Source: Chitinophagales bacterium (GTDB lineage Bacteria; Bacteroidota; Bacteroidia; Chitinophagales; CAIOSU01). Taken from it: 57,032 nt of DNA. The translations under genes were made by a program, and so were the position numbers. The notes beneath the pieces are model-generated. The model saw only the letters and a program-made list of their open reading frames with translations. It had not been told where the DNA came from and did no database searches. This document shows positions 11,598-34,595 of this stretch, piece by piece; the first letter of the stretch is position 1; each line of letters starts with the position of its first letter. Location: positions 1 through 57,032 of the forward strand of contig JBBDNB010000050.1 of NCBI GenBank assembly GCA_040877935.1, in the 5' to 3' direction.

Positions 11598-11663
11598 GGT
11601 ATTGTGTTTTTGGTTAAAATGAATTTAAGAAATGATTTTGAATATTTCTTACTGTAAACTGAT

Positions 11664-11698
11664 AACCTGAGCTCGAGAATTATTTAAGAGCTCAGGTT
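11664..11698. repeat. Copy A of a dispersed ~35-bp imperfect palindromic repeat
   Basis: Seen: aacctgagctcgagaattatttaagagctcaggtt. The 11-bp arms aacctgagctc and gagctcaggtt are exact reverse complements. See copies at 25163, 25411 and 30086. Confidence 0.8.
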
Positions 11699-11982
11699 GA
11701 TAAACTCAATCAGGGTTGTCATTGTGGTTCAGAAGATATGCCAAGCGGGAGAGTACCTGGTGGGACGGGTATGGCAAAACCAAATTTTTCTACACTTAAA
11801 TCAGTAGCGAGGGCGCTACTGATAGGGGTGTTTACAAACAGATAAATTCAGTATTTTAGTTGAATGCTTGATAAATATAAAACTTAGAACACTTTCCATG
11901 CGTTACATAAGCTGCTAAGCTACAAGCAAATGGAATAATAGCTGTTTGATAATTTAGTATCTTTGATTTAAATTTAAATAAT

Positions 11983-12225
11983 ATGGATTTAGAAGCCAGA
12001 AAAATATCATTTGTACAGGAATTTTTAAGACTTCAAAATGAAGATATAATCAGCGGCCTTGAAAAACTTTTGCGCAAAAGAAAAGCTGAACTGATTGAGA
12101 AGAACTTAAAACCTATGACTGTAGAGGAGTACAACTCTGAAATAGACCAGGCTATGGATGATTCCAAAAATAAACGAATGATTAAGGCCAGCGATTTAAA
12201 AGATAAAATCCAAAAATGGAGTTAG
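11983..12225 (+). CDS. Putative antitoxin of a ParE-type toxin-antitoxin pair
   Basis: Seen: an 80-aa charged, helical ORF whose 3' end overlaps the start of the downstream ParE-like gene by 10 nt. The antitoxin role is inferred from this arrangement; the sequence itself is not diagnostic. Confidence 0.5.
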   Translation: MDLEARKISFVQEFLRLQNEDIISGLEKLLRKRKAELIEKNLKPMTVEEYNSEIDQAMDDSKNKRMIKASDLKDKIQKWS

Positions 12226-12533
12226 AAGTTTATTGGTTGGAACTTGCAGAAAGCAAACTTGAAGACATCTATAGTTACCATTCAATCAAAGCAAGCAAAC
12301 GTATTGCTAAAAAATTAATAATCGGAATAATTGACACTACAATTGGGCTCGGAAAACAGCCTGAAATTGGGCAAATTGAAAACAATTTAAACAGCAGAGA
12401 TCAAGAATTTCGTTATTTAGTATATAAAAATTACAAAATTGTCTATTGGGTAAACTACAAGTTTGCCCGAATTGAAATAGCAAATATATTCGATACAAGG
12501 CAAGACCCCGAAAAACTCAAGGAAACTAAATAG
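12216..12533 (+). CDS. RelE/ParE-family toxin (ParE-like)
   Basis: Seen: 105 aa with ParE-like features (YWLELAESKLEDIYSY ... YLVYKNYKIVYWVNYKFARIEIANIFDTRQDP). It overlaps the upstream small ORF. Confidence 0.75.
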   Translation: MELEVYWLELAESKLEDIYSYHSIKASKRIAKKLIIGIIDTTIGLGKQPEIGQIENNLNSRDQEFRYLVYKNYKIVYWVNYKFARIEIANIFDTRQDPEKLKETK

Positions 12534-12606
12534 CTATTCCATTAGATTGGATGCATTCTATAAGCTTTTGGTTTTGTTTTGGGTACTTATAATCATTAAT
12601 TATCCG

Positions 12607-15447
12607 CTAATCAAAAAGCGTTCCCTGCGAACCACTTCCCTTGTTGCTGCTTTTCTTCTCCGTCTTTTTCTCCAAATCCCATTCAATGGAATCTCCACTT
12701 TTAAGTTTGTTGGATTTATCTTCTGGTTTTTCTTCGGGCTTTCTGGGCGGTAGCGGTTGCTTTTTAGGGGCTTCCTTTTCTTCGGCTTTTTCCTCCTTTG
12801 GTGCTAAATTTTCCTTGGAAGTTTCCTCAGGTGCTTTTTTATCATCTGGCTTTTGTTCCTCTGAACTTTCAGTACTTTCTGCTTCCGGGTTTTGAGTATC
12901 CTTAGCGCTTTCCCAATCTTCTTCATGTACCAATTTCAGCTTTCCTTTTACGGTGTTCAAGCTCAAGCGATTGCCCAGTGATTTCCAGCCTTTTACATCA
13001 ATAAATTCCTCCAAATTAACGATTTCCGTTTCCTTGATCTTTGATTTGCCACGTTCGCTGGAAAATTCCACAGTAGGATTCTTCTTTGTAGAAGCAAAAA
13101 CCATTTTGGAATTTCTTCCCTCGCTGATAAAACCCAAACGGTGGTTCAAAGAGGTAGTTTCGATTAAAAAACGCTTGACGAAATAATTTTTCTTTTCACT
13201 GTCGTAATGCACGACCGAAACAGGATGGTCTGGATTGAATTTCTCCAAAATTTCCACTTCTTCCAATTGATAGCGATTGGTCAATTCATAATTGGTCAAT
13301 TCATAAGAGCCATCCTTATAAATCAGCAGGATTTTATCATCGCCCTTGAAATTTCCAAGATACTTACCGCGCTCATCCACATTCAATCTTCCCACAGATT
13401 CATCTATCCAAATATCAATTCCTCCAAGCGTACTTTCACCTTCGTGCTTAAATTTGATATTGCGCACGGGATATTTGGTCAAAGTATTTCCTTTAGAGCC
13501 CTTTCCCTTGATGTCTATTTCTGAAAAATCGAAGTCAAATTGTTTTTTGCGGGCGGAACAACCCTGAGTCAATTGCACTGAAATCACTTCTGCTTCTGCA
13601 TTGGGGTTGGCACTGAGGTAGAGCACTTTGCTGCCTTTGGCACCGGTAGTCAGGTCGTATTCGCGATCGCGGGTTACGGATTTAACATTGAAGCGTTTTA
13701 TATAAGTGCGTTTGGATTTTGCATCAAAGTAAACCATGTTATAGACCATCCGTTCATCGCCTCTGTTCCAGACTCCTGCATACAGGATATCTTTGCCAAC
13801 AAATGCTTTATCATCTACTTTGGTAACCATAAATTTACCGTCCCGTCTGATGGCAATTACATCGTCAATATCGGAGCATTCCTGCACAAATTCATCCTTT
13901 TTCAATCCATAGCCCACAAAACCTTCAGCCCTGTTGACGTATAGTTTTTGGTTGTTGACTACCACTTGCTGGCGTTCAATGGTATCGAAAGTAGCAATGG
14001 TGGTTTTACGCTCGCGGCCTTTTCCAAATTTATCGATCAGCATTTGAAAATAGGCAATGGCATAATCCGTAAGGTGTGCCAAATCGTGTTTGATCTGTTC
14101 CAGGTCTTCTTCCAATTTTTTTATCAGCTCATCTGCTTTGAAAGCATCAAATTTGGAAATTCTCTTGATTTTGATTTCCGTCAATCGCACGATATCCTCT
14201 TCGGTAACTTCGCGCATCAATTGCTTTTTGAAGGGGTCCAGGCCTTTGTCAATTGCTTCTATAACTGCTTCCCAGGTTTCACATTCTTCAATATCGCGGT
14301 AGATGCGGTTTTCGATGAATATTTTTTCAAGCGATGAAAAATGCCATTTCTCTTCCAGTGCTTTTTTCTTGATCTCCAGTTCCATACGCAGCAACTCAAG
14401 CGTGTGCTCTGTAGATTGCTTAAGCACATCATCTACTGCCATAAAGTGGGGCTTGTCAGCAATGATCACGCAAACATTGGGAGAAATGGAAATTTCACAG
14501 TCCGTAAAGGCATAAAGTCCATCCACAGCAATATCCGGGGAAATTCCGGCAGGCAATTCAATGAGTATTTCAACATCTTTTGCCGTATTATCCGTAACTC
14601 GTTTTATTTTGATTTTGTTCTTGTCATTGGCTTTCAGAATGCTGTCAATCAAGCTGGTGGTAGTTGTTCCAAATGGAATATCCTTGATCACAAGCGTCTT
14701 GCGATCTTCGATATCTATTTTTGCGCGCACCTTTATTCTGCCTCCGCGCAAGCCCCCATTGTATTCACTAAAATCAGCTGTGCCACCGGTAGGGAAATCT
14801 GGCAAGAGTTTGGTTTTCTTTCCCTTTAATACATCTATAGAGCCTTTGCACAATTCGATAAAATTGTGGGGCATAATTTTAGTTGCCAGTCCAACTGCAA
14901 TACCTTCCACGCCTTGTGCCAGCAATAAGGGGAATTTCATGGGCAAAGCAATGGGTTCTCTTTTTCTGCCATCATAGGAAAGTTGCCATTCGGTTAGGTC
15001 GGCATTGAAAGCTACTTCCAGCGCAAATTTAGAAAGGCGGGCTTCTATATATCTGGGTGCTGCTGCACTGTCTCCTGTACGGATATCCCCCCAGTTTCCC
15101 TGGGTTTCGATCATCAGTTCTTTTTGCCCCATATTCACAATGGCATCGCCAATAGCCGCATCTCCGTGTGGGTGGTACTGCATGGTCTGTCCAATGATAT
15201 TGGCCACCTTGTTGAAACGGCCATCGTCCATTTCCTTCATGGCGTGCATAATCCTGCGCTGCACGGGTTTCAAGCCATCCTCATACTTGGGTACTGCACG
15301 CTCCAGGATCACATAGGAAGCATAGTCAATAAACCAATCCTGGTACATGCCAGAAACCGGTTTTTTGCTTTCCAGCCAGCCGCCATCGCCTTTGTCCTCT
15401 GGAGTTTGTCCGTTTTCTTTATTTGAATCTTCGGGTTCTTGTGCCAT
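12607..15447 (-). CDS. parC: DNA topoisomerase IV subunit A (ParC-like type IIA topoisomerase A subunit)
   Basis: Seen: GyrA/ParC N-terminal region (YASYVILERAVP, GLKPVQRRIMHAM) with a catalytic-Tyr region. No GyrA-box (QRRGGKG) was seen in the C-terminal domain, and the gene is adjacent to a ParE/GyrB-type gene. The last ~130 aa form a K/E/P-rich low-complexity tail. Confidence 0.75.
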   Translation of the reverse strand: MAQEPEDSNKENGQTPEDKGDGGWLESKKPVSGMYQDWFIDYASYVILERAVPKYEDGLKPVQRRIMHAMKEMDDGRFNKVANIIGQTMQYHPHGDAAIGDAIVNMGQKELMIETQGNWGDIRTGDSAAAPRYIEARLSKFALEVAFNADLTEWQLSYDGRKREPIALPMKFPLLLAQGVEGIAVGLATKIMPHNFIELCKGSIDVLKGKKTKLLPDFPTGGTADFSEYNGGLRGGRIKVRAKIDIEDRKTLVIKDIPFGTTTTSLIDSILKANDKNKIKIKRVTDNTAKDVEILIELPAGISPDIAVDGLYAFTDCEISISPNVCVIIADKPHFMAVDDVLKQSTEHTLELLRMELEIKKKALEEKWHFSSLEKIFIENRIYRDIEECETWEAVIEAIDKGLDPFKKQLMREVTEEDIVRLTEIKIKRISKFDAFKADELIKKLEEDLEQIKHDLAHLTDYAIAYFQMLIDKFGKGRERKTTIATFDTIERQQVVVNNQKLYVNRAEGFVGYGLKKDEFVQECSDIDDVIAIRRDGKFMVTKVDDKAFVGKDILYAGVWNRGDERMVYNMVYFDAKSKRTYIKRFNVKSVTRDREYDLTTGAKGSKVLYLSANPNAEAEVISVQLTQGCSARKKQFDFDFSEIDIKGKGSKGNTLTKYPVRNIKFKHEGESTLGGIDIWIDESVGRLNVDERGKYLGNFKGDDKILLIYKDGSYELTNYELTNRYQLEEVEILEKFNPDHPVSVVHYDSEKKNYFVKRFLIETTSLNHRLGFISEGRNSKMVFASTKKNPTVEFSSERGKSKIKETEIVNLEEFIDVKGWKSLGNRLSLNTVKGKLKLVHEEDWESAKDTQNPEAESTESSEEQKPDDKKAPEETSKENLAPKEEKAEEKEAPKKQPLPPRKPEEKPEDKSNKLKSGDSIEWDLEKKTEKKSSNKGSGSQGTLFD

Positions 15448-15518
15448 AGTTGGTAATGATTATTCTATACTTATATTCTATTGATATTAAGTGATTATTT
15501 AAAATTTGCCTTAGAATG

Positions 15519-15677
15519 CTATTGCTTTTGGAGTGCCTTATATTGCTTTCTTCTTTTCTTGAAATATTCGAGTACTTCTTTAGCAGATTTACCCTCTGTT
15601 TCTTTTGCAATCCTGTCTCTTTCTTTTCTAACTGATTCAACACAGTCGAATTTTTTACTGTTTTTTTCAGCATTCAT
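15519..15677 (-). CDS. Possible small protein (52 aa) between parE and parC
   Basis: Seen: an ORF of 52 aa, MNAEKNSKKFDCVESVRKERDRIAKETEGKSAKEVLEYFKKRRKQYKALQKQ, on the same strand as both flanking genes. It is below the 60-aa cutoff of the ORF track and there is no other support. Confidence 0.25.
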   Translation of the reverse strand: MNAEKNSKKFDCVESVRKERDRIAKETEGKSAKEVLEYFKKRRKQYKALQKQ

Positions 15678-15710
15678 AAGCTACAATTTCATTTGACCAA
15701 AACTCACTAA

Positions 15711-17570
15711 TCAAACCTCCAAAACCTCTTCTTCTTTGTCTTCCTCAATTTTCAAATTTTCAATAATAAACTGCTGTCGTTCCATGGTATTTTTGCCCAT
15801 AAAGTATTGCAGCAGGTTTTTGATCTTGGTGTCTTTTTGGATAATCACAGGTTCCAGCCTGATTTGTTCACCGATAAATCCGCTGAACTCGTCCGGTGAA
15901 ATTTCACCCAATCCCTTAAAGCGGGTAATTTCTGGTTTTCCGCCCAGTTCTGTTATTGCATTTATCCTTTCCTCATCAGAATAGCAATAAATGGTTTTCT
16001 TTTTGTTGCGCACACGGAACAGAGGTGTTTCCAGAATATACAAATGTCTGGCTTTTACCAATTCGGGGAAAAACTGCAAAAAGAAAGTAAGCAGCAAAAG
16101 GCGAATGTGCATACCATCCACATCGGCATCGGTAGCTATTACCACTTTATTGTAGCGCAAACCCTCAATGCCTTCCTCAATATTCAAGGCGTGTTGCAGG
16201 AGGTTGAACTCCTCATTTTCATACACCACTTTTTTGGTCAATCCGAAAGAATTCAATGGCTTTCCGCGCAAACTAAATACCGCTTGCGTTTGCACATCAC
16301 GTGCTTTGGTAATGGATCCACTTGCAGAATCCCCCTCGGTAATAAACAAGGTAGAATCGGCTCTTCTTTCATTGTGCTCCATTGAGAAATGTACCCTGCA
16401 ATCGCGCAGTTTTTTATTGTGCAGGTTGGCTTTTTTCGCCCTTTGGTTGGCCAGCTTTTTAATACCGGCCATTTCCTTGCGTTCCCGCTCCGATTGCAGT
16501 ATGCGTTTTTGCAAAGCTTCGGCAGTGTCGGGGTTTTTATGCAAATAATTGTCGAGCTCTGTCCTTAAAAAATCAAGGATAAAAGCTCTTACAGTTGGGC
16601 CATCCTGGCCTATGTTCTGTGAGCCGAGCTTGGTTTTGGTCTGCGATTCGAAAACCGGTTCCTGAACCCTGATGGCTACTGCTGCAATTACTGCAGTGCG
16701 AATGTCCGTAGCATCAAAATCTTTTTTGTAGAAATCGCGCAGCACTTTCACCAAACTTTCGCGAAAAGCACTGAGGTGTGTGCCGCCCTGTGTAGTGAAT
16801 TGCCCGTTGACAAATGAATAATATTCTTCTCCGTATTGATTGCCGTGTGTTAGCGCTACCTCAATATCTTCACCGCGCAGGTGAACAATAGGGTAGCGGT
16901 TGTTTTCTACATCAGATTTGTTGAGTAAAAGGTCTTTAAGCCCATCATCGGAGTGGTATCTTTCTCCGTTGAATTTTATGGTCAACCCTGAATTCAGATA
17001 GGCATAATTCCACATCTGGTCTTCCAGGTAATCGGGAATGAATTTAAAACTCTTGAAAATGGAGGTGTCCGGCCTGAAAGTAATGCGGGTGCCATTGCGT
17101 TCATCGGTTTTTTCCAGTTTGGCATCTATTTTCAGCTCACCGCGCTCAAACTCTGCACGTTTTTTTTGTCCATCGCGAATGGATTCCACACAAAAAAAAT
17201 ATGACAGTGCATTTACCGCTTTTGTACCCACACCATTCAGCCCCACTGATTTTTGGAAAGCTTTGCTGTCGTATTTTCCACCGGTATTTATCTTTGAAAC
17301 ACAGTCGATTACTTTGCCCAGCGGAATGCCCCGCCCATAATCGCGGATCACAACCTCGTCATCGGTAATCTTTATTTCAATGCGCTTTCCAAAGCCCATC
17401 ATGTGTTCGTCAATGGAGTTGTCCAATACTTCCTTTACCAGTACATAAATGCCATCATCCGGGCTGGAACCATCGCCCAGCTTCCCGATGTACATTCCCG
17501 GACGCAGACGGATGTGTTCTTTCCAGTCTAATGAGCGGATGTTTTCTTCCGTATAATTCAGTTCAGCCAT
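15711..17570 (-). CDS. parE: DNA topoisomerase IV subunit B (ParE/GyrB-type ATPase subunit)
   Basis: Seen: a GHKL ATPase N-terminus ([29 protein letters not shown]), a Toprim region ([10 protein letters not shown]) and the C-terminal domain, 619 aa in total. It lies directly upstream of the ParC-like gene. Confidence 0.8.
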
Positions 17571-17986
17571 AAATCTTTTGGGTTAAGAATAGATAAGCTC
17601 TTTACAATAATAATGATTCACTTTCCAAGCAAAAAATATTTGCAATAGAGCTTTTGAACAGTGGCGTGTGGATTGTTGGGGGAGAGTCTATCTAAATTCA
17701 ACAAATCATTCAAAATGCTTTAGAACACAAGCCTGAAAGTAAAAAATTAGTTGTTTTCTAACCATTTATAAAAATACTCTAATGAATATCCCATTGTTTC
17801 TAAATTTGTCTTCAAATGAAAGGCAGGAATCTCTTTGTATTGGCTTCTGAAAGTAATTGTCCTGAAACAATTTGGACATTTCCAGTGCTCGTGGGAAGTA
17901 CTGTTGTGCCTTTTCTTTACGCACTTATGCTTTTTAAGGAATTTAACCCACTTTTTTATTTTGACAGGTCTGATAATTAATCAATT

Positions 17987-18343
17987 TCAAGCTGGTGTTT
18001 CTATTGTAGTTTGAATTACATCTTCAGGGGAATCAAAATTTAATAAAACACCTTTTTCATCAACAGAAGCCTTTGAAAACTTTTTCTTGAAAAATGTATT
18101 TCTTTCCCATCCTAACTTTTTCAACTCTTTGTCTATCAAAGATTTATTTAACTCCATTATATCTTTGATAAATACTTTCAGGTTATATTCAGCATCTTCA
18201 GTGGATTCTTTAAATGTTTTCCCATAACCAGATACATTTAAAGATGGGAAATAACTCACAAAGTATTCCCCTTGTTTACCGGTAAACATTTTAAGATGTG
18301 CTTTAAATCTACTAGTGCCTATTTTTATAGATTCTTTATCCAT
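17987..18343 (-). CDS. Hypothetical protein, possibly HicB-like (UPF0150 fold)
   Basis: Seen: 118 aa. The pattern GEYFVSYFPSLNVSGYGKTFKESTEDAEYNLKVFI resembles the HicB N-terminal domain, but this is a weak inference. No HicA partner ORF was found. Confidence 0.3.
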   Translation of the reverse strand: MDKESIKIGTSRFKAHLKMFTGKQGEYFVSYFPSLNVSGYGKTFKESTEDAEYNLKVFIKDIMELNKSLIDKELKKLGWERNTFFKKKFSKASVDEKGVLLNFDSPEDVIQTTIETPA

Positions 18344-18510
18344 GTTTATAAAACGCTATTTTATTCAAAAACAGTCTATGTGAAATTATAAAAAAGAAAC
18401 AAAACAAAGAATGTTTACAAAAACTATCAAAAAATGATTCCGTACCATAATGGTATTCATTAATTGTAAGCATACATAGTTGTATAGTAGGATTTCCACA
18501 AATGATTAAT

Positions 18511-18843
18511 TTACTTCAACCTCACCCCATTCTCCACTTTATGCTCAGGCTGTACCAAACTGATGCCTCCATCAGGATGATCAACTCCCAGCACCAATAC
18601 CTGCGACATAAAATTGGCAATTTGCCTTTCGGTGAAATTGACGACTGCAAACACTTGTTTATTCTGTAAATCTTCAATACTGTAGTGTTCAGTAATCTGT
18701 GCAGAACTCTTTTTGATACCGATTTCCCCACCAAAATCAATCCAAAGTTTGTAGGCGGGTTTTTTGGCTTCATTAAAAACTTCGGCTTTAATGACCGTTC
18801 CTGTCCTGATGTCGATTTTTTGAAAATCCTCTAAAACAGCCAT
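18511..18843 (-). CDS. tRNA-binding domain protein (CsaA/YgjH-like)
   Basis: Seen: [11 protein letters not shown] and [29 protein letters not shown], typical of the EMAP/Myf-like tRNA-binding fold. Confidence 0.7.
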
Positions 18844-18848
18844 CTGGT

Positions 18849-19640
18849 TTATTTAAAAATAGCCTTTGTTTTTAAAAGTAAATCCTTGTGAATTTCCGGG
18901 CTCCCGCAAAGCAGTTCCTTTCCAAAAAGGTAATTGTCTTTCCCGGAAAAATCGCTGACTTTACCGCCAGCTTCTCTAATCAGAACGGCACCTGCTGCTA
19001 CATCCCAGGGCTGCAAGCTGTATTCAAAAAATGCATCGAAGCGGCCGCTTGCCACATAAGCCATATCCAGTGCTGCCGAACCTATGCGCCTGATGCCCCT
19101 GCTATTTTGAATGAGTACTTTCAATAGTTCAAAATAAGCATCGCTGCGTGAAAAGTCATAATAGGGGAAACCGGTAGCCAGCAAACTTTCCTCAAGGTTT
19201 TTTCTCCTGGAAACCTGCACCTGCTTTCCATTGCAAAATGTGCCGCCACCTTTGTATGCCGAAAACATTTCCTTTTGTCCCAATTCATAGGTAATGCCAA
19301 TGACCAGCTCATCGCGGTATTGCAGCGCTACACTTACACAATAGGAAGGGAGGCCATACAGAAAATTGGTAGTGCCATCCAGGGGGTCGATGATCCAGGT
19401 GAATTCTTTGATATCGTCCTGGATGGTGTCTTCTTCCGTAAGAAAGCCTGAATTTGGAAGTATTTCACCAAGCCCTTTCACCAACTGTTTTTCGGCTTCT
19501 TTATCTACAAAACTCACGAGGCTGTTCACCGATTTCTCCTCAACTTTCAATTGGTCAATTTCACTTGATTTTTCAAGTATAAAAGTTCCCGTTTTGCGAA
19601 TGACTTTTTCAGCCTGTGATGTGATTTTACTCCAATTCAT
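18849..19640 (-). CDS. Inositol monophosphatase family protein
   Basis: Seen: the [12 protein letters not shown] metal-binding motif and a downstream WDVAAG motif. Confidence 0.8.
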
Positions 19641-20326: not shown

Positions 20327-20372
20327 TTGTTTTCATATTCTTATGAATTAGAGAGCAGGAATTTAACCAATC

Positions 20373-21980: not shown

Positions 21981-21987
21981 TCCCAAT

Positions 21988-23598: not shown

Positions 23599-23850
23599 AA
23601 GACAATTTTTAATGATGAAATGGCTTCCAAAGATAGGTGCATGAAATTGGCTTTGAAAGGAAATGAGCGATTAAAAAAATCAACGAATCAATGTGTAAAA
23701 CAACTTGCTGAAAGCCGCTAATAATTCCCTAAAAATAAATCTTGAAAAAGTATTCCACATTTTCTTAACATCGGGCATTTTAAATAAACTTATTAGCATG
23801 AATTAAAAATTATTTTAAGTAATTTTTTGTGTTCTTGAAATCCATTGCAG

Positions 23851-23920
23851 TGTTTGTTTTTTTTGTTTTAAAATAAAAAAAGGCAATGCCCTGAAAAACT
23901 ATATTTTCAGCATTGCCTTT
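23851..23920 (-). terminator. Intrinsic terminator downstream of the encapsulin gene
   Basis: Seen: hairpin aaaggcaatgcc-ctgaaaa-actata-ttttcag-cattgccttt at 23878-23920, followed on the minus strand by a T-rich tract (plus-strand 23851-23877 is A/T-rich). Confidence 0.6.
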
Positions 23921-23941
23921 AAATTAAATGCAGTCTGCTAT

Positions 23942-24733
23942 TTAGGACAGTACAACTACTGCATCGGGATCCAGTACTTCAAAAGTAAATGATTCTGTAA
24001 AGAATAAATCCACTTTTTTACCATCGTGGTTATCGTAGCCGATAGAAATATCACTGCCCAGTGTTAGTCGAAAATCTCCACCGCGTTGCGACACCAAAAA
24101 AGCTTCTTTTGTATTTGGGGCAAAGATCACATCGCCTTCTATCAGTTTTAGGATTTGCTTTTTCAGCGGATATCCGTTTACAAGTTCACCGGCCAATTGC
24201 TGCCATTTTTCACGGTTCAGTACTAGCGAGAAAGGACCTTCCACACCTTTTTCTTTAAACAGACTCAATGCCTGTGTTACTGATTTCAGCAAGCCCTCGC
24301 CTTTTTCGAATTTCACTTGTTTTTGATCACTGGCATTTTTCAAGCCCGGCACACCGGCTTCTTTCAATCCGTAATAGATCACTTTTTCCTCAAAAGCTGC
24401 AATTTCATGGGCAGCTTCTTCAAGGTTATCGAGATCAATTACATTTGCACCCCGCACTGCATTGTCCAATTCCCAGATATTGAGCGAAAAATTTGCCCGG
24501 GATTCTACAAGGGGCTGTACCTGATGTACTCCGTATTTTAAATTGCCTTTTTGTCCTTTGGGAATATCGAGCCTGCCTTTGTTTACTGCGGCAAAATCCC
24601 AGCCTTTGGGGCCATCTACATCAACAAATTTTCTTGCAGACAGTGCAGCGGTTAAAATTTCTTCTGCCCGGTGATTGATCTCATTCCAGGCTTCTTTTGA
24701 TATTGGGGCTAAATTTTTTCTTAATAAATCCAT
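23942..24733 (-). CDS. Family 1 encapsulin nanocompartment shell protein
   Basis: Seen: 263 aa, HK97-fold encapsulin/linocin-M18-like (MDLLRKNLAPISKEAWNEINHRAEE ... SFTFEVLDPDAVVVLS). It lies directly downstream of a cargo gene that carries a targeting peptide. Confidence 0.8.
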   Translation of the reverse strand: MDLLRKNLAPISKEAWNEINHRAEEILTAALSARKFVDVDGPKGWDFAAVNKGRLDIPKGQKGNLKYGVHQVQPLVESRANFSLNIWELDNAVRGANVIDLDNLEEAAHEIAAFEEKVIYYGLKEAGVPGLKNASDQKQVKFEKGEGLLKSVTQALSLFKEKGVEGPFSLVLNREKWQQLAGELVNGYPLKKQILKLIEGDVIFAPNTKEAFLVSQRGGDFRLTLGSDISIGYDNHDGKKVDLFFTESFTFEVLDPDAVVVLS

Positions 24734-24747
24734 ATTCTCTTTCCTTT

Positions 24748-25107
24748 TTATTTTTTGATTTTTCCAATTTTCAAACTTCCGTCATCATCTTTTTTGTTTG
24801 ATGCAGCACTACTTTCTGGTTTTAAATCATCTGATGTGATGTCTCCCTCGGTAAAGAGGTAAGTGCGCAATTGCTTGTCCCAACCAGGTTGGTTGCGTCT
24901 GAGCCATTCAATGGTCATAGAGGCATGTTCCATTTCCTCATTGCGGTTGTGTTCCAATATTTTGAACAACTGCTCATCGTCACAAGCATCCATTCTTTGC
25001 TGGTACCAGTCAATGGCCTCCACTTCTTCCTGAAGTGTATTCAGTGCTCTTCTGTAATTTCTTGTTTCTTTACTCAGCTCTTCGGCTGGTTCGTGAAATT
25101 CTGACAT
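24748..25107 (-). CDS. Encapsulated ferritin-like cargo protein (EncFtn/Flp-type) with C-terminal encapsulin targeting peptide
   Basis: Seen: ExxH-type ferroxidase motifs (EEVEAIDWY, EEMEHASM) in a ~100-aa helical core. A flexible S/D/K-rich linker follows, and the C-terminus DGSLKIGKIKK matches the GSLxIGxLK-type targeting-peptide consensus. Confidence 0.7.
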   Translation of the reverse strand: MSEFHEPAEELSKETRNYRRALNTLQEEVEAIDWYQQRMDACDDEQLFKILEHNRNEEMEHASMTIEWLRRNQPGWDKQLRTYLFTEGDITSDDLKPESSAASNKKDDDGSLKIGKIKK

Positions 25108-25162
25108 ATTCTTTGCTTTTTGGTTATTAAATAGACAATCTAAATATTTAAGATTTGGTATT

Positions 25163-25197
25163 AACCTGAATTCGGAAATTATTTATTGCTCAGAATG
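25163..25197. repeat. Copy D (degenerate) of the ~35-bp palindromic repeat
   Basis: Seen: aacctgaattcggaaattatttattgctcagaat. It lies in the same intergenic region as copy B, in the opposite orientation, about 250 bp away. Confidence 0.6.
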
Positions 25198-25410
25198 CCA
25201 AAAAATAGTGAGATTCGACTGGAAATATTGATGGAATAGCGGGCTATTTTGAGATATTTCCAGGAAGAAGATTGCTGTTTTCTGGCATTTGAAATCCATA
25301 AAACGCAATTTGCTGCGTTGCATTTGCTTGGTTTATCTCGATAGACCTTCTCAAATGCGCCTTGCCTATTGCATTTTAGTGAATTTCCCCGCCTGCATGA
25401 AGCATTCGGA

Positions 25411-25445
25411 CAGGTGAGCTCTTAAATAATTATCGAACTCAGGTT
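25411..25445. repeat. Copy B of the ~35-bp palindromic repeat
   Basis: Seen: caggtgagctcttaaataattatcgaactcaggtt. It differs from copy C by 1 mismatch across the 31-bp core. Confidence 0.8.
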
Positions 25446-25532
25446 ATTATAATAATTGAAGCGAAGCAGAATTGTTTAAAGAAAAGTGAGGAAATCAAAA
25501 ACACAAGCTTTTGAAATTAATCTCTACAAACT

Positions 25533-25883
25533 TTGTTTCACAAGCTTAAAGCCTATATTTTTATTAAATCTGAAACATGCATCAAAATGTATTCGCGCAA
25601 GAAAAAGTTGGAGATGATGAAAGGCCTGATGTGGGATTACAATATTCCTTCCGAACATTGCCTGGAAGTTTTAGAGGGCAAGCGCAAAAATGCAGGACAT
25701 TATACGGAAGCCACTCTGTTCAGAAAATTGTTGGAATCTTATCGCTGGTTTACGGTTTTGAAAATACTTGATATTCAGAGAATTACAGAACTTCTAACCA
25801 AAGAACTTACTCATTCCCTCAGGTTTAAATCACTCACAAAGAATTATGAGTTTATCCGAAAACGATTACAAAAATCTGTATAA
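25533..25883 (+). CDS. Short putative partner (antitoxin candidate) of the AbiEii-like nucleotidyltransferase
   Basis: Seen: a 116-aa ORF (alternative starts at Met19 and Met28) overlapping the downstream AbiEii-like gene by 38 nt. No clear winged-HTH is recognisable, so the antitoxin role is inferred from gene arrangement only. Confidence 0.3.
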   Translation: MFHKLKAYIFIKSETCIKMYSRKKKLEMMKGLMWDYNIPSEHCLEVLEGKRKNAGHYTEATLFRKLLESYRWFTVLKILDIQRITELLTKELTHSLRFKSLTKNYEFIRKRLQKSV

Positions 25884-26568
25884 ACTGCAGGACAAGGTAT
25901 TCGATGAAATATCAGAACATACAGGCCCACTTTATCTCACAGGTGGTACAGCTCTGGGCAGGTTTTTTCTAAATCACAGGTACAGTGATGATATTGATTT
26001 TTTCGCAAATTCAGATCAATTATTTAAAAAAACAGTTTCAAAAATCAGGCTTATTCTTGAGCAAAATTTTGAAACAAATCCTGATAAACTTATTCTTTAT
26101 GATGATTTTATCAGAGTTTGGGTGATGAACAGCGAGAGTGAGCTTAAAGTAGAGTTTGTAAATGATGTACCATACAGGTGGGGCAAATCAATTGTAAGCA
26201 GCACTAAAAAAATCAACATTGATAATCCCGGTAATATTTTATCAAATAAACTAGGAGCTGTTGTGGGCAGGGGTGAACCAAAGGATGTATTTGATGTCAT
26301 CCACTTATCGCTCAATTATTCCTTTAACTGGGCTGAAATCTTTGAGCATACCATCCGAAAATCTGTTGTGGCAGAACAAGACGTGGCCATGCGACTAAAC
26401 ACTTTCCCCGTTGATCTTTTTGCAACCCAGCCCTGGCTTAAGAATTCAGTGGATATTGATCAAATGCGCGAAAAGTTGGAAACCATTTCCGATGATTTTC
26501 TTTTTGCAAGGGATAATTCGCTGGGAAAAGACAAAACGCCCATTACAAAAGCGAAAATCATTGAATAA
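25846..26568 (+). CDS. AbiEii/AbiGii-family nucleotidyltransferase toxin (DUF1814-like)
   Basis: Seen: LYLTGGTALGRFFLNHRYSDDIDFF (a GGTAL ... SxDID NTase signature) in 240 aa. Confidence 0.7.
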   Translation: MSLSENDYKNLYKLQDKVFDEISEHTGPLYLTGGTALGRFFLNHRYSDDIDFFANSDQLFKKTVSKIRLILEQNFETNPDKLILYDDFIRVWVMNSESELKVEFVNDVPYRWGKSIVSSTKKINIDNPGNILSNKLGAVVGRGEPKDVFDVIHLSLNYSFNWAEIFEHTIRKSVVAEQDVAMRLNTFPVDLFATQPWLKNSVDIDQMREKLETISDDFLFARDNSLGKDKTPITKAKIIE

Positions 26569-26593
26569 GGGTCTGTAACAAACACTAAAAAAA

Positions 26594-26627
26594 CCGCAGC
26601 CTGAAAATTTCAAACTGCGGTTTTTTT
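26594..26627 (+). terminator. Intrinsic terminator after the AbiEii-like gene
   Basis: Seen: hairpin ccgcagcctgaaaatttcaaactgcgg followed by ttttttt. Confidence 0.65.
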
Positions 26628-26630
26628 GTG

Positions 26631-26716
26631 TGCCCAGAACAGGAGTCGAACCTGCACGCCCTAAAACGAGCACAAGGCCCTCAACCTTGCGTGTCTACCA
26701 ATTCCACCACCTGGGC
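26631..26716 (-). tRNA. tRNA-Leu (anticodon GAG)
   Basis: Seen: the reverse complement folds as a cloverleaf. Acceptor stem GCCCAGG/CCTGGGC (wait: 3' strand TCTGGGC), anticodon stem CAAGG/CCTTG, loop TTGAGGG giving anticodon GAG, a long variable arm and a GGTTCGACTCC T-arm. Confidence 0.85.
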
Positions 26717-26921
26717 ATATTTAAAACCCTGCAAAGCTAAGCATTTCTCCATTTGTTGAAACAATAAATCTTGTGAATAATTTTAGTACCCTGTGGTATT
26801 GCAGAACAGACTTAAAACAATACCTTTCATTAAAAAAGATTTAATCACGTTTTATTCCCGTTTTATTTACAATTTATTTTCCTTTTAATCCCGGTATATC
26901 ATACTATTGGTGTAAATTAGC

Positions 26922-28001
26922 ATGATGTCATTTAAACCCAGATTCACAATTACACCTGCAATAACAAAGGCTCTCCTTGAAATAGAAAGGCACAAGGAAG
27001 CTATAGAGCACCTTCCGTTTTCTGCTTCAATGCTTGCTTCCCTAAGGGAGTCCGCAAGGTTAATGTCCACTCATTACTCCACACAAATTGAGGGCAACCA
27101 ATTAAGCCCAAAAGAGGTAGAAAAAGTTGTTAAAAAAAACATAGGTGGTTTTCCGGGTAGGGAGCGAGACGAAATGGAGGTAAAGAACTACTATAAGGCT
27201 CTGGAAGTGGTAGAAAGTCTTGCAAGTTCTAATGACCCTATCAAAGAAAAAGATATACAGTGCATACATAGTCTGATTCTTAAGGGTAAAACAAATCCTA
27301 CTCCTTATAGGGATGGACAAAATGTAATACAGGACAGCATGTCGGGAGCAGTAGTATATATGCCGCCTGAATATACTGATGTTCCTCAACTTATGGAGGA
27401 GCTGGTACGATGGATCAACCAACAAGTAAAAGAAGAAATACTACCTGTTGCCATAATTGGCGCAATCGCACATTACCAATATGCGACCATCCACCCATAT
27501 TATGACGGGAATGGCCGTACAGCCAGGTTGCTTACTACACTGATCCTCCACAAATGTGGTTATGATTTAAAGGGCATATACTCACTTGAGGAATATTATG
27601 CTAAAAATCTAAAAGCTTATTACAATGCTTTAGATACAGACAATATCCCCAATTATTATATGGGGAGAAAAGAGGCTAATATTACTCCCTTTCTGGAATA
27701 TTTTTGTTCAGGCATGGCCATTTCATTTAGAAGGATAAGAACAAAAGCTGAACAGGAGAAAGCTCCTGACCAATCGAAAATACTTAGGCAGCTCAGTGCC
27801 AGGCAGAAACAGGCACTGTCACTTTTCAATAAACAAGCAGAGATAAAATCCTCTGAACTGGCAAGTCATTTAGGGATTCCCGACAGAAGTTCAGCTGAAC
27901 TTTGTATAAAATGGGTAGAGGATGGTTTTCTAAAGATTACAAACCCATCAAAAAAGGCTCGTGCCTACGGACTAAGTGATATCTATGAAAAACTGATCTA
28001 A
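26922..28001 (+). CDS. Fic family protein (class II, with N-terminal inhibitory motif)
   Basis: Seen: a canonical Fic active-site motif HPYYDGNGRTARL and an N-terminal inhibitory-helix motif STQIEGN ([ST]xxxE[GN]). The C-terminal ~90 aa are consistent with a winged-helix domain, which is inference. Confidence 0.85.
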   Translation: MMSFKPRFTITPAITKALLEIERHKEAIEHLPFSASMLASLRESARLMSTHYSTQIEGNQLSPKEVEKVVKKNIGGFPGRERDEMEVKNYYKALEVVESLASSNDPIKEKDIQCIHSLILKGKTNPTPYRDGQNVIQDSMSGAVVYMPPEYTDVPQLMEELVRWINQQVKEEILPVAIIGAIAHYQYATIHPYYDGNGRTARLLTTLILHKCGYDLKGIYSLEEYYAKNLKAYYNALDTDNIPNYYMGRKEANITPFLEYFCSGMAISFRRIRTKAEQEKAPDQSKILRQLSARQKQALSLFNKQAEIKSSELASHLGIPDRSSAELCIKWVEDGFLKITNPSKKARAYGLSDIYEKLI

Positions 28002-28036
28002 AAAGTCCATCCCAAATAGTGAAATTTTAAAACAAC

Positions 28037-28056
28037 CCTTGCTTTAACAAGGTTTT
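28037..28056 (+). terminator. Weak hairpin plus T-run after the Fic gene
   Basis: Seen: ccttg-ctttaa-caagg followed by ttttt. Confidence 0.35.
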
Positions 28057-28103
28057 TCATTCTACGGGAATTATTCTATTATCAAGCCATTGGCTAAACT
28101 ATA

Positions 28104-28958
28104 CTATGCCTCTCCCTTTTTAATATGGTACAAAGCCAAATCATATATTGGTTTGCGAATGACTTTCCCTACCTGTAAGCCTTTTTCATTCAGGCATTCC
28201 AGCAAAATATTTTTAAAAATAAAAGCTATGGAACCTACAAAATGTACCGGTACTTCTTTGGCTTTTTTAAAGGGCAAGACATGGAAATCCAGAAAATCAT
28301 TGAATGATTTTTTCAGCAATTGCTGTACAAATGGATCTTCTTGCCTATCGCCAAGCACTCGGGTAAACTGCGCCAAATATTGATTGGGATTTTTGGGCTT
28401 TAAATACACTTCGTCCAACAGTTTTTCTCTGTCAAGATCAAACTCCTTGTATATTCTCAATTTGAGCCATTTCGGTATGCGATCGTAAAAGTAAAGCCTG
28501 ATCAGGTCGCGCCCGATTTGACTGGCACCACCCTCATCGCCAAGAATATAGCCCAGGGAAGGTGTGCCCTCATCGAGTTTTTCGCCATCATAATAGCAAG
28601 CATTGGAACCTGTGCCCAAAATGCAACTGATGCCTGGTTGATCGCCACAAGTGGCATATACAGAAGCCAACAGATCGTGTTGTACATTTACTGCTGCATT
28701 GCGAAAGAAAGCAGAAAGCCCTTTTTCAATAATGGCATTGCGTTCTTTGTTGGAACACCAGGCACCATAAAACTGAATTTTAAGGATTTGATTTTTGAAA
28801 AGCGCTATGTCTTCTATTTTGCTCAATTCTACACCTATGCTCAACGTGTCGTGATAGAGCGGGCTAAGCCCATTGGTGCTGAATTCCTTCACCACCTTGC
28901 CTTTGCTTATCAGCAGCCAGTCAGCTTTTGTAGATCCACTTTCAGCGAGTAAAAACAT
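28104..28958 (-). CDS. BadF/BadG/BcrA/BcrD-type ATPase (N-acetylglucosamine-kinase-like)
   Basis: Seen: an ASKHA-fold N-terminus MFLLAESGSTKADWLLI and glycine-rich phosphate loops (GTGSNACYYDG). Confidence 0.6.
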   Translation of the reverse strand: MFLLAESGSTKADWLLISKGKVVKEFSTNGLSPLYHDTLSIGVELSKIEDIALFKNQILKIQFYGAWCSNKERNAIIEKGLSAFFRNAAVNVQHDLLASVYATCGDQPGISCILGTGSNACYYDGEKLDEGTPSLGYILGDEGGASQIGRDLIRLYFYDRIPKWLKLRIYKEFDLDREKLLDEVYLKPKNPNQYLAQFTRVLGDRQEDPFVQQLLKKSFNDFLDFHVLPFKKAKEVPVHFVGSIAFIFKNILLECLNEKGLQVGKVIRKPIYDLALYHIKKGEA

Positions 28959-29016
28959 AGAATTTTTATTTCAAGTCCGAAAATAGAAAAATTAGAAAGT
29001 GCAAAAGAGCAAAGCC

Positions 29017-29514
29017 CTAAGAGTTTTCAAAGTATTGCTGCATTTTTTCTACTACCATATATGCTGCGGGACAAATCTGTGTGTTTTTTGCAGTCAGCTT
29101 TGTGATTTTGTGAAAATCCCGAAAGTCAGTATGCGGATATTCCCTGCATGCTTTTGGCCGAACTTCATAAACCGAGCAATAATTGTCTGTCCCGAGAAAA
29201 GGGCAGGGGACTGTTTGCAAAACATAATCTCCGTCTTCATCGATGCGCAGGTATTTTTCTGTGAAATCTGCCGGTCGCATTTGCAGGTGTGCCGCAAGTC
29301 GTTCTATGTCTTTTTGTTTGAATAATGGCCCTGTTGTTTTACAACAATTGGCACAATCCAGGCAATTAATTGTTTCAAAAGCTTCATCGTGGCAACTATG
29401 CGCCATTTGATTGACTTTTCCGGATTTTTCTTTCGCCAGCGAATTGAGGAATTTCCGGCTTTGCTTTTTTCGGGAAGCGGATTTTTCGAGGATTTTTTGG
29501 AGTTCGGGAGTCAA
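29017..29514 (-). CDS. YkgJ-family cysteine-cluster protein (UPF0153)
   Basis: Seen: CHDEAFETINCLDCANCCKTTGP and CPFLGTDNYCSVYEVRPKACREYP cysteine clusters. Confidence 0.6.
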   Translation of the reverse strand: MTPELQKILEKSASRKKQSRKFLNSLAKEKSGKVNQMAHSCHDEAFETINCLDCANCCKTTGPLFKQKDIERLAAHLQMRPADFTEKYLRIDEDGDYVLQTVPCPFLGTDNYCSVYEVRPKACREYPHTDFRDFHKITKLTAKNTQICPAAYMVVEKMQQYFENS

Positions 29515-29523
29515 ACTTGCAGT

Positions 29524-30069
29524 TTAATTTTGAATGGCACGGCTTTCTTTATAGAGCATTTCCATCAGTCCGAAAGATTTTTCATCAGATCTTTTGGCAC
29601 CGGCTTCTACATAAATAAAAACCTCTTCGTTGCGGGTCTTCTCGTATTTTTCTTCTTTTCTGAAAACGGACAATTTTGCTGCCAGTGATTTCTGAACACT
29701 GTTGATGAAATCCTTTAGTTGTTCAGGATCACGGAAATCCATATCAGTTTTCGGATCAGCAGTGAGTCCAACTTCTATGTAAGTATTGTCTTTAAAGTAG
29801 AGTTGGCGGTATTTTTTCTCTTCTCTGAGCTCCAGATATTCAACTTTGGTCAATACCTGATCGAAAACCTGTTCGCTGAAAGCTTCAATCAGTTCCAGAG
29901 CGCGCTCCTGCTTTTTAATACGAATATGCGCCCACTCTTCAGGTGCAATAGATCGCTTTGACAAAAAACCCATAAATTCTTTGTCCAAACTTTGTAATTC
30001 TTCAAATGAAAGCAATCTAAATTTCATGCAGTGCTTAATTTTATGCAAAGCTATGAATAAAGCGGTCAA
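29524..30069 (-). CDS. Hypothetical protein
   Basis: Seen: a 181-aa ORF with good coding appearance; the start is uncertain (internal Met at MKFRLL). No family was recognised. Confidence 0.4.
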   Translation of the reverse strand: MTALFIALHKIKHCMKFRLLSFEELQSLDKEFMGFLSKRSIAPEEWAHIRIKKQERALELIEAFSEQVFDQVLTKVEYLELREEKKYRQLYFKDNTYIEVGLTADPKTDMDFRDPEQLKDFINSVQKSLAAKLSVFRKEEKYEKTRNEEVFIYVEAGAKRSDEKSFGLMEMLYKESRAIQN

Positions 30070-30085
30070 TCTTTCAATGTGTAGT

Positions 30086-30120
30086 AACCTGAGCTCTTAA
30101 ATAATTATCGAATTCAGGTT
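30086..30120. repeat. Copy C of the ~35-bp palindromic repeat
   Basis: Seen: aacctgagctcttaaataattatcgaattcaggtt in the 70-bp divergent intergenic region between 30069 and 30140. Confidence 0.8.
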
Positions 30121-30139
30121 GTGCTAATGCAATGTATAT

Positions 30140-34492: not shown

Positions 34493-34520
34493 CATCAACA
34501 AATAATTGAGTGTAAATATT

Positions 34521-34553
34521 AAGCCGTTTCTTCAAAAACGGCTTTTGTTTTTT
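34521..34553 (+). terminator. Intrinsic terminator
   Basis: Seen: hairpin aagccgtttcttcaaaaacggctt followed by ttgtttttt. Confidence 0.6.
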
Positions 34554-34595
34554 ACAAAAATCAAATATTTACAGAATAATCTATAGTTTTGAACA

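What the first reader, a model, noticed from the sequence alone, without database searches (positions are those of the whole stretch)
11664..30120. Dispersed ~35-bp imperfect palindromic repeat, four intergenic copies
The 31-bp core tgagctcttaaataattatcgaaYtcaggtt is nearly identical at 25411-25445 and 30086-30120, with 1 mismatch. It recurs in reverse orientation at 11664-11698 with 2-3 mismatches, and in degenerate form at 25163-25197. Each copy has 11-bp arms (aacctgagctc and gagctcaggtt, or the gaattc variant) around an asymmetric AT-rich 13-bp centre, so each can form a hairpin. Every copy is intergenic and sits in a 5' or divergent region. The neighbours are the M23-like gene and the ParE pair, the encapsulin cargo and the AbiE pair, and a hypothetical gene and the AEC transporter. 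The element could be a REP/MITE-like element or an operator for a dimeric regulator. I have not seen this specific element described.
Basis: seen in the sequence. Interest (0 to 1): 0.6.

Follow-up and report, generated by a model that had tools for sequence, protein, structure and literature searches.

The report
Small non-coding transposon (MITE) ends
The repeated 35-base palindrome is the end sequence of a small non-coding jumping element (a MITE), present here as one full 283-base copy and two collapsed 35-base copies; this is an ordinary kind of bacterial genome parasite from a family not yet described.

Summary
The repeat is real. Three copies match the 31-mer with 2 or fewer mismatches, against 0 expected by chance. 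But the four "copies" are three insertions. Copies D (25163-25197) and B (25411-25445) are the two terminal inverted repeats of one 283-bp non-coding element. The same element, about 97% identical with one 27-bp indel, sits at an unrelated locus in another MAG contig (L004). Other metagenome contigs carry 181-269-bp elements with the same 24-nt end, AACCTGARYTCGATAATTATTTAA, and unrelated interiors. Seven of eight independent insertions have a perfect 3-bp direct repeat at their flanks (ATT, TAT, AAT, GAT). Chance gives about 2-3% per site. Copy C has only 2 bp. All insertions are intergenic; one (L007) has a degenerate end overlapped by 24 nt of a flanking reading frame. Short-read assemblies of the same strain break at both ends of the 283-bp element. 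Relatives with 77-92% identical flanking proteins lack it. This is a MITE family moved in trans by a DDE transposase that I did not find. Copies A and C keep one full end plus 11 nt of the other. They are either internal-deletion derivatives or minimal elements. The REP/RAYT, operator and structured-RNA readings are not supported. It is a new member of a known kind, of low to moderate interest.

The parts
25163..25445 (.). Full-length 283-bp MITE. It is non-coding and lies between the EncFtn gene (24748-25107, minus strand) and the AbiEi-like gene (25533-25883, plus strand).
   Evidence: It aligns end to end, about 97% identical with one 27-bp indel, with L004:196-451 at an unrelated locus. 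Homology starts exactly at AACC and stops exactly at GGTT. No ORF of 60 aa or more lies inside it. Folded as single-stranded DNA the two ends pair: -47.8 kcal/mol, z -4.8. Short-read contigs of the same strain end at or inside it on both sides.
25163..25193 (+).
25415..25445 (-). Read outer to inner it is AACCTGAGTTCGATAATTATTTAAGAGCTCA.
25160..25162 (.). Target-site duplication ATT, left copy. The right copy is at 25446-25448.
25446..25448 (.). Target-site duplication ATT, right copy.
11664..11698 (.). 35-bp collapsed element (copy A). It has one full 24-nt end, then GAGCTCAGGTT, which is the outermost 11 nt of the opposite end. The arms are a perfect 11-bp match. It lies 67 bp upstream of the M23 peptidase gene start (11597, minus strand) and 285 bp upstream of the ParD-like gene (11983, plus strand).
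   Evidence: It is identical in the same-strain contigs L013 and L014.
11661..11663 (.). Target-site duplication GAT, left copy. The right copy is at 11699-11701.
11699..11701 (.). Target-site duplication GAT, right copy.
30086..30120 (.). 35-bp collapsed element (copy C). The full 24-nt end reads on the minus strand. It lies between the DUF6495 gene (minus strand, probable ATG at 30027) and the AEC/Mem_trans transporter gene (plus strand, probable ATG at 30149). Only a 2-bp flanking direct repeat is present: GT at 30084-30085 and 30121-30122.
   Evidence: It is present in the same-strain contigs L019 and L020. It is absent from the homologous intergenic region of L021, L022 and L023.

Best explanation
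[quoted passage not shown] The 24-nt end AACCTGARYTCGATAATTATTTAA is the site that a DDE-type transposase, encoded elsewhere, binds and cleaves. Integration uses staggered cuts 3 bp apart (occasionally 2 bp) in AT-rich intergenic DNA and leaves a 3-bp target-site duplication. The window holds one full 283-bp copy (25163-25445) and two 35-bp derivatives (11664-11698 and 30086-30120). Each derivative keeps one full TIR joined to the outermost 11 nt of the other end. The most economical origin for them is deletion of the interior between two short direct repeats: GAGCTCAG at the inner edge of one TIR and GAGCTCAGGTT at the outer tip of the other. That deletion gives exactly the 35-mer. Because both cleavage tips are kept, the 35-mers may still be mobilisable. 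Shown: TIRs, TSDs, lack of coding capacity, presence at unrelated loci, intergenic placement, absence from relatives. Inferred: the transposase class, the deletion origin of the 35-mers, and any effect on neighbouring promoters.
For: (1) The 283-bp segment 25163-25445 recurs at about 97% identity, with one 27-bp indel, in L004 between unrelated genes. Homology begins and ends exactly at AACC and GGTT. (2) A metagenome scan with the TIR found six real hits at five loci: L005/L012 (one locus in two samples), L006, L007=L008 and L009. These are 181-269-bp elements bounded by the same end in inverted orientation but with interiors unrelated to the window element. (3) Seven of eight independent insertions have identical 3-bp flanks: ATT, ATT, ATT, AAT, TAT, ATA and GAT as read on each source's + strand. 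The empirical chance rate is 2.0-3.3% per site. Copy C has 2 bp. (4) All insertions are intergenic. In L007 the degenerate element end is overlapped by 24 nt of a flanking reading frame. No ORF of 60 aa or more lies inside the 283-bp copy. (5) Five short-read contigs of the same strain (L001, L002, L003, L019, L020) end at or within about 25 nt of the 283-bp element on both sides. The 35-bp copies are assembled through. This is the behaviour expected of a repeat longer than the k-mer or read that occurs more than once in the genome. (6) Relatives with 77-92% identical flanking proteins have no trace of the element at the EncFtn or DUF6495/AEC loci. (7) The whole element folds with its ends paired, z -4.8. 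This fits the published description of bacterial MITEs: about 50-600 bp, AT-rich, no transposase, TIRs, TSDs, mobilised in trans (PMC6382973; PMC9330008).
Against: No autonomous partner was found. There is no transposase in the window (Pfam on about 40 ORFs). No transposase-bearing element was found with these ends among the metagenome, species-representative genome or viral contig hits. No base-exact empty site was recovered, because the intergenic DNA of the available relatives is too diverged. The copy number in the source genome is unknown. Only three loci in 57 kb and one locus in a second MAG are documented. At 35 bp, copies A and C are below the usual MITE size range, and copy C lacks a full 3-bp duplication.
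Confidence: 0.85

Rival explanations
1. REP/REPIN-type element: a short extragenic palindrome, singly or as an inverted doublet, spread by a RAYT (IS200/IS605-like Y1) transposase that recognises the hairpin.
For: The unit is about 35 bp, imperfectly palindromic and extragenic. The 283-bp element could be read as two inverted units, as in a REPIN. Copy A forms a strong hairpin.
Against: Seven of eight insertions carry 3-bp flanking direct repeats. By my own knowledge, Y1 transposition does not produce these. In the related elements of L005, L006 and L009 the conserved part is only the 24-nt terminal sequence, with no palindromic unit at the ends. Copies B and D do not fold beyond weak or shuffle level. 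The 215-bp spacer is far longer than in described REPINs (my knowledge). No Y1/RAYT gene is in the window.
Confidence: 0.04
2. Operator: a palindromic binding site for a dimeric transcription factor that co-regulates the flanking divergent gene pairs.
For: All three window loci are divergent promoter regions. The arms are 11 bp with a fixed 13-bp spacer in A and C. Copy C lies between two Bacteroidetes-type -7 boxes.
Against: Copies B and D each lack one arm. The site is absent from the same intergenic regions in relatives that keep the genes and their -7 boxes. The same sequence forms the inverted ends of 181-283-bp elements with TSDs at unrelated loci in other organisms, including 3'-of-gene positions. 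The neighbouring genes share no functional theme: M23 peptidase, ParDE, EncFtn, AbiE, DUF6495 and an AEC transporter.
Confidence: 0.03
3. Structured RNA or terminator hairpin, or a small RNA gene, repeated in the genome.
For: Copy A folds at -19 kcal/mol with z about -6 to -7. The whole 283-bp element folds with z -4.8.
Against: There is no Rfam match at gathering score, and only a 17-bit chance-level hit in the permissive scan. There is no T-run after the stems. The window copies lie upstream of both neighbouring genes, not at 3' ends. B and D fold weakly or not above shuffles. Pairing of the ends is an automatic consequence of TIRs.
Confidence: 0.03
4. Recombination sites (attC- or att-like) that bound the toxin-antitoxin cassettes ParDE and AbiE, which lie next to copies A and B.
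For: Two of the three loci adjoin TA modules. A tRNA-Leu follows the AbiE pair. In relative L021 the Fic-tRNA-AbiE segment is replaced by other genes.
Against: No second copy of the repeat lies on the far side of either cassette, at up to 5 mismatches in 24 or up to 8 in 31. Copy C and the elements in L004, L006 and L009 have no TA neighbour. The 3-bp duplications flank each individual element, not a cassette.
Confidence: 0.02

Closest known systems
Bacterial MITEs in general (for example MITEAba12 of Acinetobacter, PMC6382973)
   Same: Small, AT-rich and non-coding. Bounded by terminal inverted repeats and flanked by short target-site duplications. Inserted in AT-rich intergenic DNA, present at several unrelated loci, and dependent on a transposase supplied in trans.
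   Different: The TIR sequence, AACCTGARYTCGATAATTATTTAA, is new to me and has no hit in the paper library. The TSD is 3 bp, against 9 bp for MITEAba12. The host is a Bacteroidota MAG. The parent IS is unknown. Two copies are collapsed to 35 bp, below the usual size range of about 50-600 bp.
Correia elements (CREE) of Neisseria
   Same: Short MITEs with TIRs of about 25 nt and A/T-only short duplications. TA is the most common, with TAT and ATA also reported (PMC9330008). They are often placed in promoter regions, where they can alter expression.
   Different: There is no sequence similarity and the phylum is different. The duplication here is predominantly 3 bp, not 2 bp. No promoter or RNase III activity has been shown here.
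IS30-family insertion sequences and IS5-family ISL2-group insertion sequences, as candidate parents
   Same: From my knowledge of the ISfinder family table, both groups make 2-3-bp duplications, and IS30 members have TIRs of 20-30 nt. Both groups occur in Bacteroidota; IS4351, for example, is an IS30-family element. IS30 elements favour palindromic or AT-rich targets. Here the L006 element sits in a hairpin with 19-bp arms and the L005/L012 element sits inside another palindromic repeat.
   Different: No transposase gene of either family, or of any other, was found associated with these ends. The assignment rests on TSD length alone.
REP / REPIN elements mobilised by RAYTs
   Same: A palindromic extragenic unit of about 35 bp that occurs singly and as an inverted pair.
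   Different: TSDs are present. The conserved part is a terminal sequence, not a hairpin. The spacer is long at 215 bp. No RAYT gene was seen.

Membership tests
Bacterial MITE | Small size (about 50-600 bp) with no transposase or other coding capacity | tested here: met
   The elements are 283 bp (window), 256 bp (L004) and 181-269 bp (L005-L012). No ORF of 60 aa or more lies inside the window copy. The two 35-bp copies fall below the usual range.
Bacterial MITE | Terminal inverted repeats | tested here: met
   A 24-nt consensus AACCTGARYTCGATAATTATTTAA is shared by most of the 16 ends; the first 12-14 nt are the most conserved, and some ends (the L005/L006/L009 second ends, the degenerate L007 end, the second ends of copies A and C) diverge after that. 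In the window element the TIR extends to about 31 nt.
Bacterial MITE | Target-site duplication of fixed length flanking each copy | tested here: met
   Seven of eight independent insertions have a perfect 3-bp direct repeat and one has 2 bp. The chance rate is 2-3% per site.
Bacterial MITE | Same element at different, non-homologous loci (evidence of movement) | tested here: met
   The window copy at 25163-25445 and L004:196-451 are about 97% identical, yet their flanks are unrelated. Assemblies break at the element.
Bacterial MITE | Occupied versus empty site differing by the element plus one TSD copy | tested here: inconclusive
   Relatives lack the element, but their intergenic DNA is too diverged for a base-exact comparison.
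Bacterial MITE | Cognate autonomous IS with matching TIRs and the same TSD length | tested here: inconclusive
   None was found in the window, among the TIR hits in genome, metagenome or viral collections, or in plasmids and phages. The rest of the source genome could not be searched.
IS30-derived or IS5(ISL2)-derived element | 2-3-bp target duplication | tested here: met
   3 bp in seven insertions and 2 bp in one. The family values come from my knowledge of ISfinder, not from a tool.
IS30-derived or IS5(ISL2)-derived element | TIR identity with a member IS that encodes the family's DDE transposase | not testable with these tools
   No ISfinder-type library of IS ends is available.
REP / REPIN (RAYT-mobilised) | No target-site duplication | tested here: not met
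   3-bp duplications are present.
REP / REPIN (RAYT-mobilised) | Stable imperfect hairpin in every unit | tested here: not met
   Only copy A folds strongly. B and D fold weakly or at shuffle level. The ends of the L005, L006 and L009 elements have no internal palindrome.
REP / REPIN (RAYT-mobilised) | Associated RAYT (Y1 transposase) gene | tested here: inconclusive
   None is in the 57-kb window. The rest of the genome was not seen.
Integron attC site | Sites bound unidirectional gene cassettes, with R''/R' core sites RYYYAAC and GTTRRRY | tested here: not met
   The bases after GGTT are GAT, ATT and GTG, so GTTRRRY is not matched. The neighbouring genes are divergent, and no paired sites lie around the cassettes.

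The most novel reading that the evidence does not exclude
The 35-bp palindromes (copies A and C) may not be dead remnants. They could be the smallest functional form of the transposon: a 35-bp unit with one full transposase-binding end and an 11-nt second tip that still transposes on its own. Copy A has its own perfect GAT duplication. Alternatively, they could have been retained because they rewire divergent promoters. Copy C lies 14 nt upstream of the -7 box of the AEC transporter gene, and so replaces that gene's upstream promoter half.
Probability: 0.12. Interest if true: 0.45.

Novelty: new member of a known kind. Interest (0 to 1): 0.22.

Why it matters
The main value is for annotation and assembly. 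The finding explains why short-read assemblies of this organism break on both sides of 25163-25445. It stops a transposon end from being annotated as a regulatory palindrome. It also gives a 24-nt signature for finding the still-unknown parent insertion sequence in Bacteroidota from saline-lake metagenomes. Insertions in divergent promoter regions next to the encapsulin/EncFtn operon, an AEC transporter and two toxin-antitoxin modules could change expression of those genes, but nothing here shows that they do. The biology is that of an ordinary MITE. It does not open a new question.

Tried and rejected
1. Rfam at gathering score on the whole window, and a permissive scan on 25100-25540, gave only the two tRNAs and a chance-level miRNA hit.
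2. A viral contig scan with the TIR found nothing. blastn of the 283-bp element against plasmids and phages found nothing.
3. The genome-contig scan used a strict 22-mer and returned a single hit, L004.
4. Two of the eight metagenome hits (L010, L011) were chance matches, one inside coding sequence and one in eukaryote-like sequence, and were discarded.
5. The search for base-exact empty sites went through homologues of EncFtn and DUF6495. The relatives lack the element, but their intergenic DNA is too diverged to show the precise junction.
6. The same-strain contigs L013, L014, L019 and L020 carry identical copies, so no polymorphism was seen.
7. The window region 34492-34596 was checked as a possible empty site for the L004 insertion. 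It is not the homologous locus.
8. A literature search for the terminal 12-mers returned only primers and unrelated sequences.
9. Pfam on about 40 window ORFs found no transposase, integrase or RAYT.
10. The attC/integron and TA-cassette-boundary ideas were rejected because there are no paired sites and the core motifs do not fit.
Full report
**1. The observation**

The 31-mer TGAGCTCTTAAATAATTATCGAAYTCAGGTT matches 25415-25445 and 30090-30120 exactly. It matches 11664-11694 on the minus strand with 2 mismatches. None of 100 dinucleotide-preserving shuffles gave any match. The full palindromic form, AACCTGARYTC-N13-GARYTCAGGTT, is present only at 11664-11698 (copy A) and 30086-30120 (copy C). 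Copy B (25411-25445) has lost the outer part of its left arm. Copy D (25163-25197) is a diverged relative with a 1-nt indel. A fuzzy scan found no further copy in the 57 kb.

The hairpin claim holds only in part:
- Copy A folds at -19.4/-17.9 kcal/mol, z -6 to -7.
- Copy C folds at about -10 kcal/mol, z about -2.4 to -2.9.
- Copy B is at shuffle level on the + strand (z +0.55) and weak on the - strand (-8.2 kcal/mol, z -2.8).
- Copy D is indistinguishable from shuffles on both strands.

**2. Context**

The window is a complete 57,032-bp contig of an NCBI MAG labelled Chitinophagales bacterium (proteins MEX0813420.1 and MEX0813405.1). It carries housekeeping genes: gyrA/gyrB-type topoisomerases, DnaB, DnaG, ClpP and YchF. 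It also carries Bacteroidota markers, a T9SS sorting domain and GldC. The three repeat loci all lie between divergently transcribed genes:
- M23 peptidase (minus strand) and ParD-like/ParE (plus strand)
- EncFtn-encapsulin (minus strand) and AbiEi/AbiEii (plus strand)
- DUF6495 (minus strand) and an AEC/Mem_trans transporter (plus strand)

No transposase, integrase or RAYT is encoded in the window.

**3. The key result: B and D are two ends of one element**

A scan of species-representative genomes with the core returned one hit, a 1,460-bp MAG contig (L004). Reading it showed more than the 35-mer. The entire window segment 25163-25445 is present there in reverse orientation, between a gene 3' end and a sodium:alanine-symporter-like gene. 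The pairwise alignment is about 97% identical, apart from one 27-bp indel. Homology starts exactly at AACC and ends exactly at GGTT, with unrelated flanks. So copies D and B are the left and right terminal inverted repeats of a single 283-bp element (256 bp in L004) that occupies different loci in different assemblies.

**4. The family**

A metagenome scan used the end sequence read outer to inner, AACCTGARYTCGNNAATTATTTA. It gave eight hits. Two (L010, L011) are chance matches in coding or eukaryote-like sequence. The other six represent five loci: L005 and L012 (the same locus in two samples), L006, L007=L008, and L009. These are 181-269-bp elements carrying the same sequence at both ends in inverted orientation. 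Their interiors are unrelated to the window element. Across 16 ends the consensus is AACCTGARYTCGATAATTATTTAA, and the first 12-14 nt are the most conserved. All of these insertions are intergenic. In L007 a flanking reading frame overlaps the degenerate element end by 24 nt. They are not always in divergent regions: L004 and L006 lie between a 3' end and a 5' end.

**5. Target-site duplications**

The three bases outside each end, read on the + strand of each source, are as follows:

| Insertion | Left flank | Right flank |
|---|---|---|
| Window 283-bp element | ATT | ATT |
| L004 | ATT | ATT |
| L005 (L012 is the same locus in the opposite orientation, TAT / TAT) | ATA | ATA |
| L006 | ATT | ATT |
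| L007 | AAT | AAT |
| L009 | TAT | TAT |
| Copy A | GAT | GAT |
| Copy C | AGT | GTG (only GT shared) |

In the window, random positions at the same spacing have identical 3-mers 2.0-2.1% of the time, and 3.3% in AT-rich stretches. Seven of eight is therefore far beyond chance. The flanks are direct repeats, not an extension of the inverted repeat. The base after GGTT is A, T or G, while the base before AACC is always T.

**6. Recent and multi-copy**

Three independent short-read assemblies of the same strain were examined: Logan SRR27977661, Logan SRR27977662, and GCA_040905345.1. Their contigs end at, or within about 25 nt of, the 283-bp element from both directions (L001, L002, L003, L019, L020). 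They read straight through the 35-bp copies A and C (L013, L014, L019, L020). This fits an element about 280 bp long that occurs more than once in the genome.

Relatives lack the element:
- EncFtn 80-92% identical (L015, L016, L018): no element within 114-160 bp upstream of the gene.
- DUF6495 77-80% identical (L021-L023): the DUF6495/AEC divergent pair and its two TAnnTTTG boxes are kept, but the 35-mer is absent.

Intergenic divergence prevented a base-exact empty-site comparison.

**7. What it is and how it works**

The element has TIRs, fixed-length TSDs, no coding capacity, an AT-rich intergenic location, copies at unrelated loci, and subfamilies with the same ends but different interiors. 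Together these define a MITE mobilised in trans by a DDE transposase (definitions in PMC6382973, and PMC9330008). From my knowledge of the ISfinder family table, a duplication of 3 bp, sometimes 2 bp, with a TIR of about 24-31 nt is most typical of the IS30 family. The IS5 ISL2 group, IS1031 group and IS3 family are also possible on TSD length. The ends here do not show the TG...CA of IS3. Two insertions sit in palindromic targets: L006 in a hairpin with 19-bp arms, and L005/L012 inside another palindromic repeat. This weakly recalls IS30 target choice. The parent IS was not found, so the family assignment is an inference.

**8. The 35-bp copies**

Read outer to inner, A and C carry the full B-type TIR, AACCTGARYTCGAKAATTATTTAAGAGCTCA, followed directly by GGTT. 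They therefore have one complete end plus the outermost 11 nt of the other. In the long element the inner edge of this TIR is GAGCTCAG, and the outer tip of the opposite end is GARYTCAGGTT. A deletion between these short direct repeats yields exactly the 35-mer. That explains why the "palindrome" has an asymmetric centre. The alternative is that the 35-mer is itself a minimal mobile unit; copy A has its own clean GAT duplication. The present data cannot separate the two.

**9. Rivals**

- REP/REPIN: contradicted by the TSDs, by the lack of a hairpin in most ends, and by the 215-bp spacer.
- Operator: contradicted by half-sites missing in B and D, by absence from relatives that keep the promoters, and by the same sequence bounding mobile units elsewhere.
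- Structured RNA or terminator: no Rfam support, no T-run, and the wrong position relative to genes.
- att/attC boundaries of the TA cassettes: no paired sites.

**10. Possible consequences (inference only)**

Copy C lies 14 nt upstream of the TATATTTG box at 30135-30142. That box precedes the probable ATG (30149) of the AEC transporter gene. Copy C also lies 32 nt upstream of the box at 30046-30053 (minus strand) of DUF6495. Both boxes are conserved in L021. By my knowledge of Bacteroidetes promoters, which have a -33 TTTG and a -7 TAnnTTTG, the insertion replaces the upstream half of the transporter promoter. Whether expression changes is untested.

**11. Verdict**

This is a real repeat, correctly located, but it is an ordinary class of element: a new MITE family in an uncultured Bacteroidota lineage. 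It is present as one full copy and two collapsed copies. Novelty: new member of a known kind. Interest: low to moderate.

Noticed in passing
window 36122-36165: A perfect 44-bp palindrome, TAGCCAATGTAGCCACAAGGCA|TGCCTTGTGGCTACATTGGCTA. It lies in the 258-bp gap between two convergent genes: a 464-aa ORF ending at 35990 and a nitronate-monooxygenase-like gene ending at 36249. It is probably a bidirectional terminator-type hairpin.
   Followed up: partly
window ~11800-11826: A hairpin with 10-bp arms (ATCAGTAGCG / CGCTACTGAT around a 3-nt loop) in the same intergenic region as copy A. The Logan contig L014 begins inside it. A GC-rich, possibly structured stretch follows at about 11740-11780.
   Followed up: no
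window 25533-28001: The AbiEi/AbiEii pair, tRNA-Leu(GAG) at 26630-26716 (minus strand) and a Fic/DOC gene (26922-28001) form a block. In relative L021 this block is replaced by VHL-domain and HTH genes after the conserved 284-aa gene. It is likely a variable defence/TA islet, with the 283-bp MITE at its edge.
   Followed up: partly
L005:1-130 and 396-470; L012:3260-3600; L009:2580-2760: The related MITEs in these metagenome contigs are inserted in or next to a different palindromic repeat (cattgcgag...gacgaagcaatc / gattgcttcgtc...ctcgcaatg). This suggests nested insertion into another dispersed repeat family in those genomes.
   Followed up: no
L006:1671-1689 and 1946-1964: The MITE in L006 sits inside a 95% complementary hairpin with 19-bp arms, just past the stop of a 495-aa gene. 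It has inserted into a terminator-like palindrome.
   Followed up: partly
L004 (JBBDQY010000029.1) versus the window: The record title of L004 says Balneolales, while NCBI names the window's MAG Chitinophagales. Yet the two carry a 97% identical MITE and come from the same 'Lejia' study as GCA_040905345.1. The short contig may be mis-binned, the taxonomy labels may disagree, or the element may have moved between lineages.
   Followed up: no
window 30135-30142 (+) and 30046-30053 (-): Bacteroidetes-type -7 promoter boxes (TAnnTTTG) lie in front of the AEC transporter gene (probable ATG 30149) and DUF6495 (probable ATG 30027, not the TTG at 30069). Both boxes are conserved in L021.
   Followed up: partly
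window 8094-8198 and 4088-4229 / 5530-5671: A 21/42-nt tandem repeat lies inside the 1,740-aa CheB/CheR/PAS gene. A 142-nt direct repeat, 75% identical, links the histidine-kinase gene (3564-4910) and the 1,740-aa gene; it is probably a shared paralogous domain.
   Followed up: no
window 23942-25107: A two-gene encapsulin operon: EncFtn cargo (24748-25107) followed by a Linocin_M18 shell protein (23942-24733). The closest cultured homologue of the cargo is from Halocola ammonii, at 75% identity.
   Followed up: no
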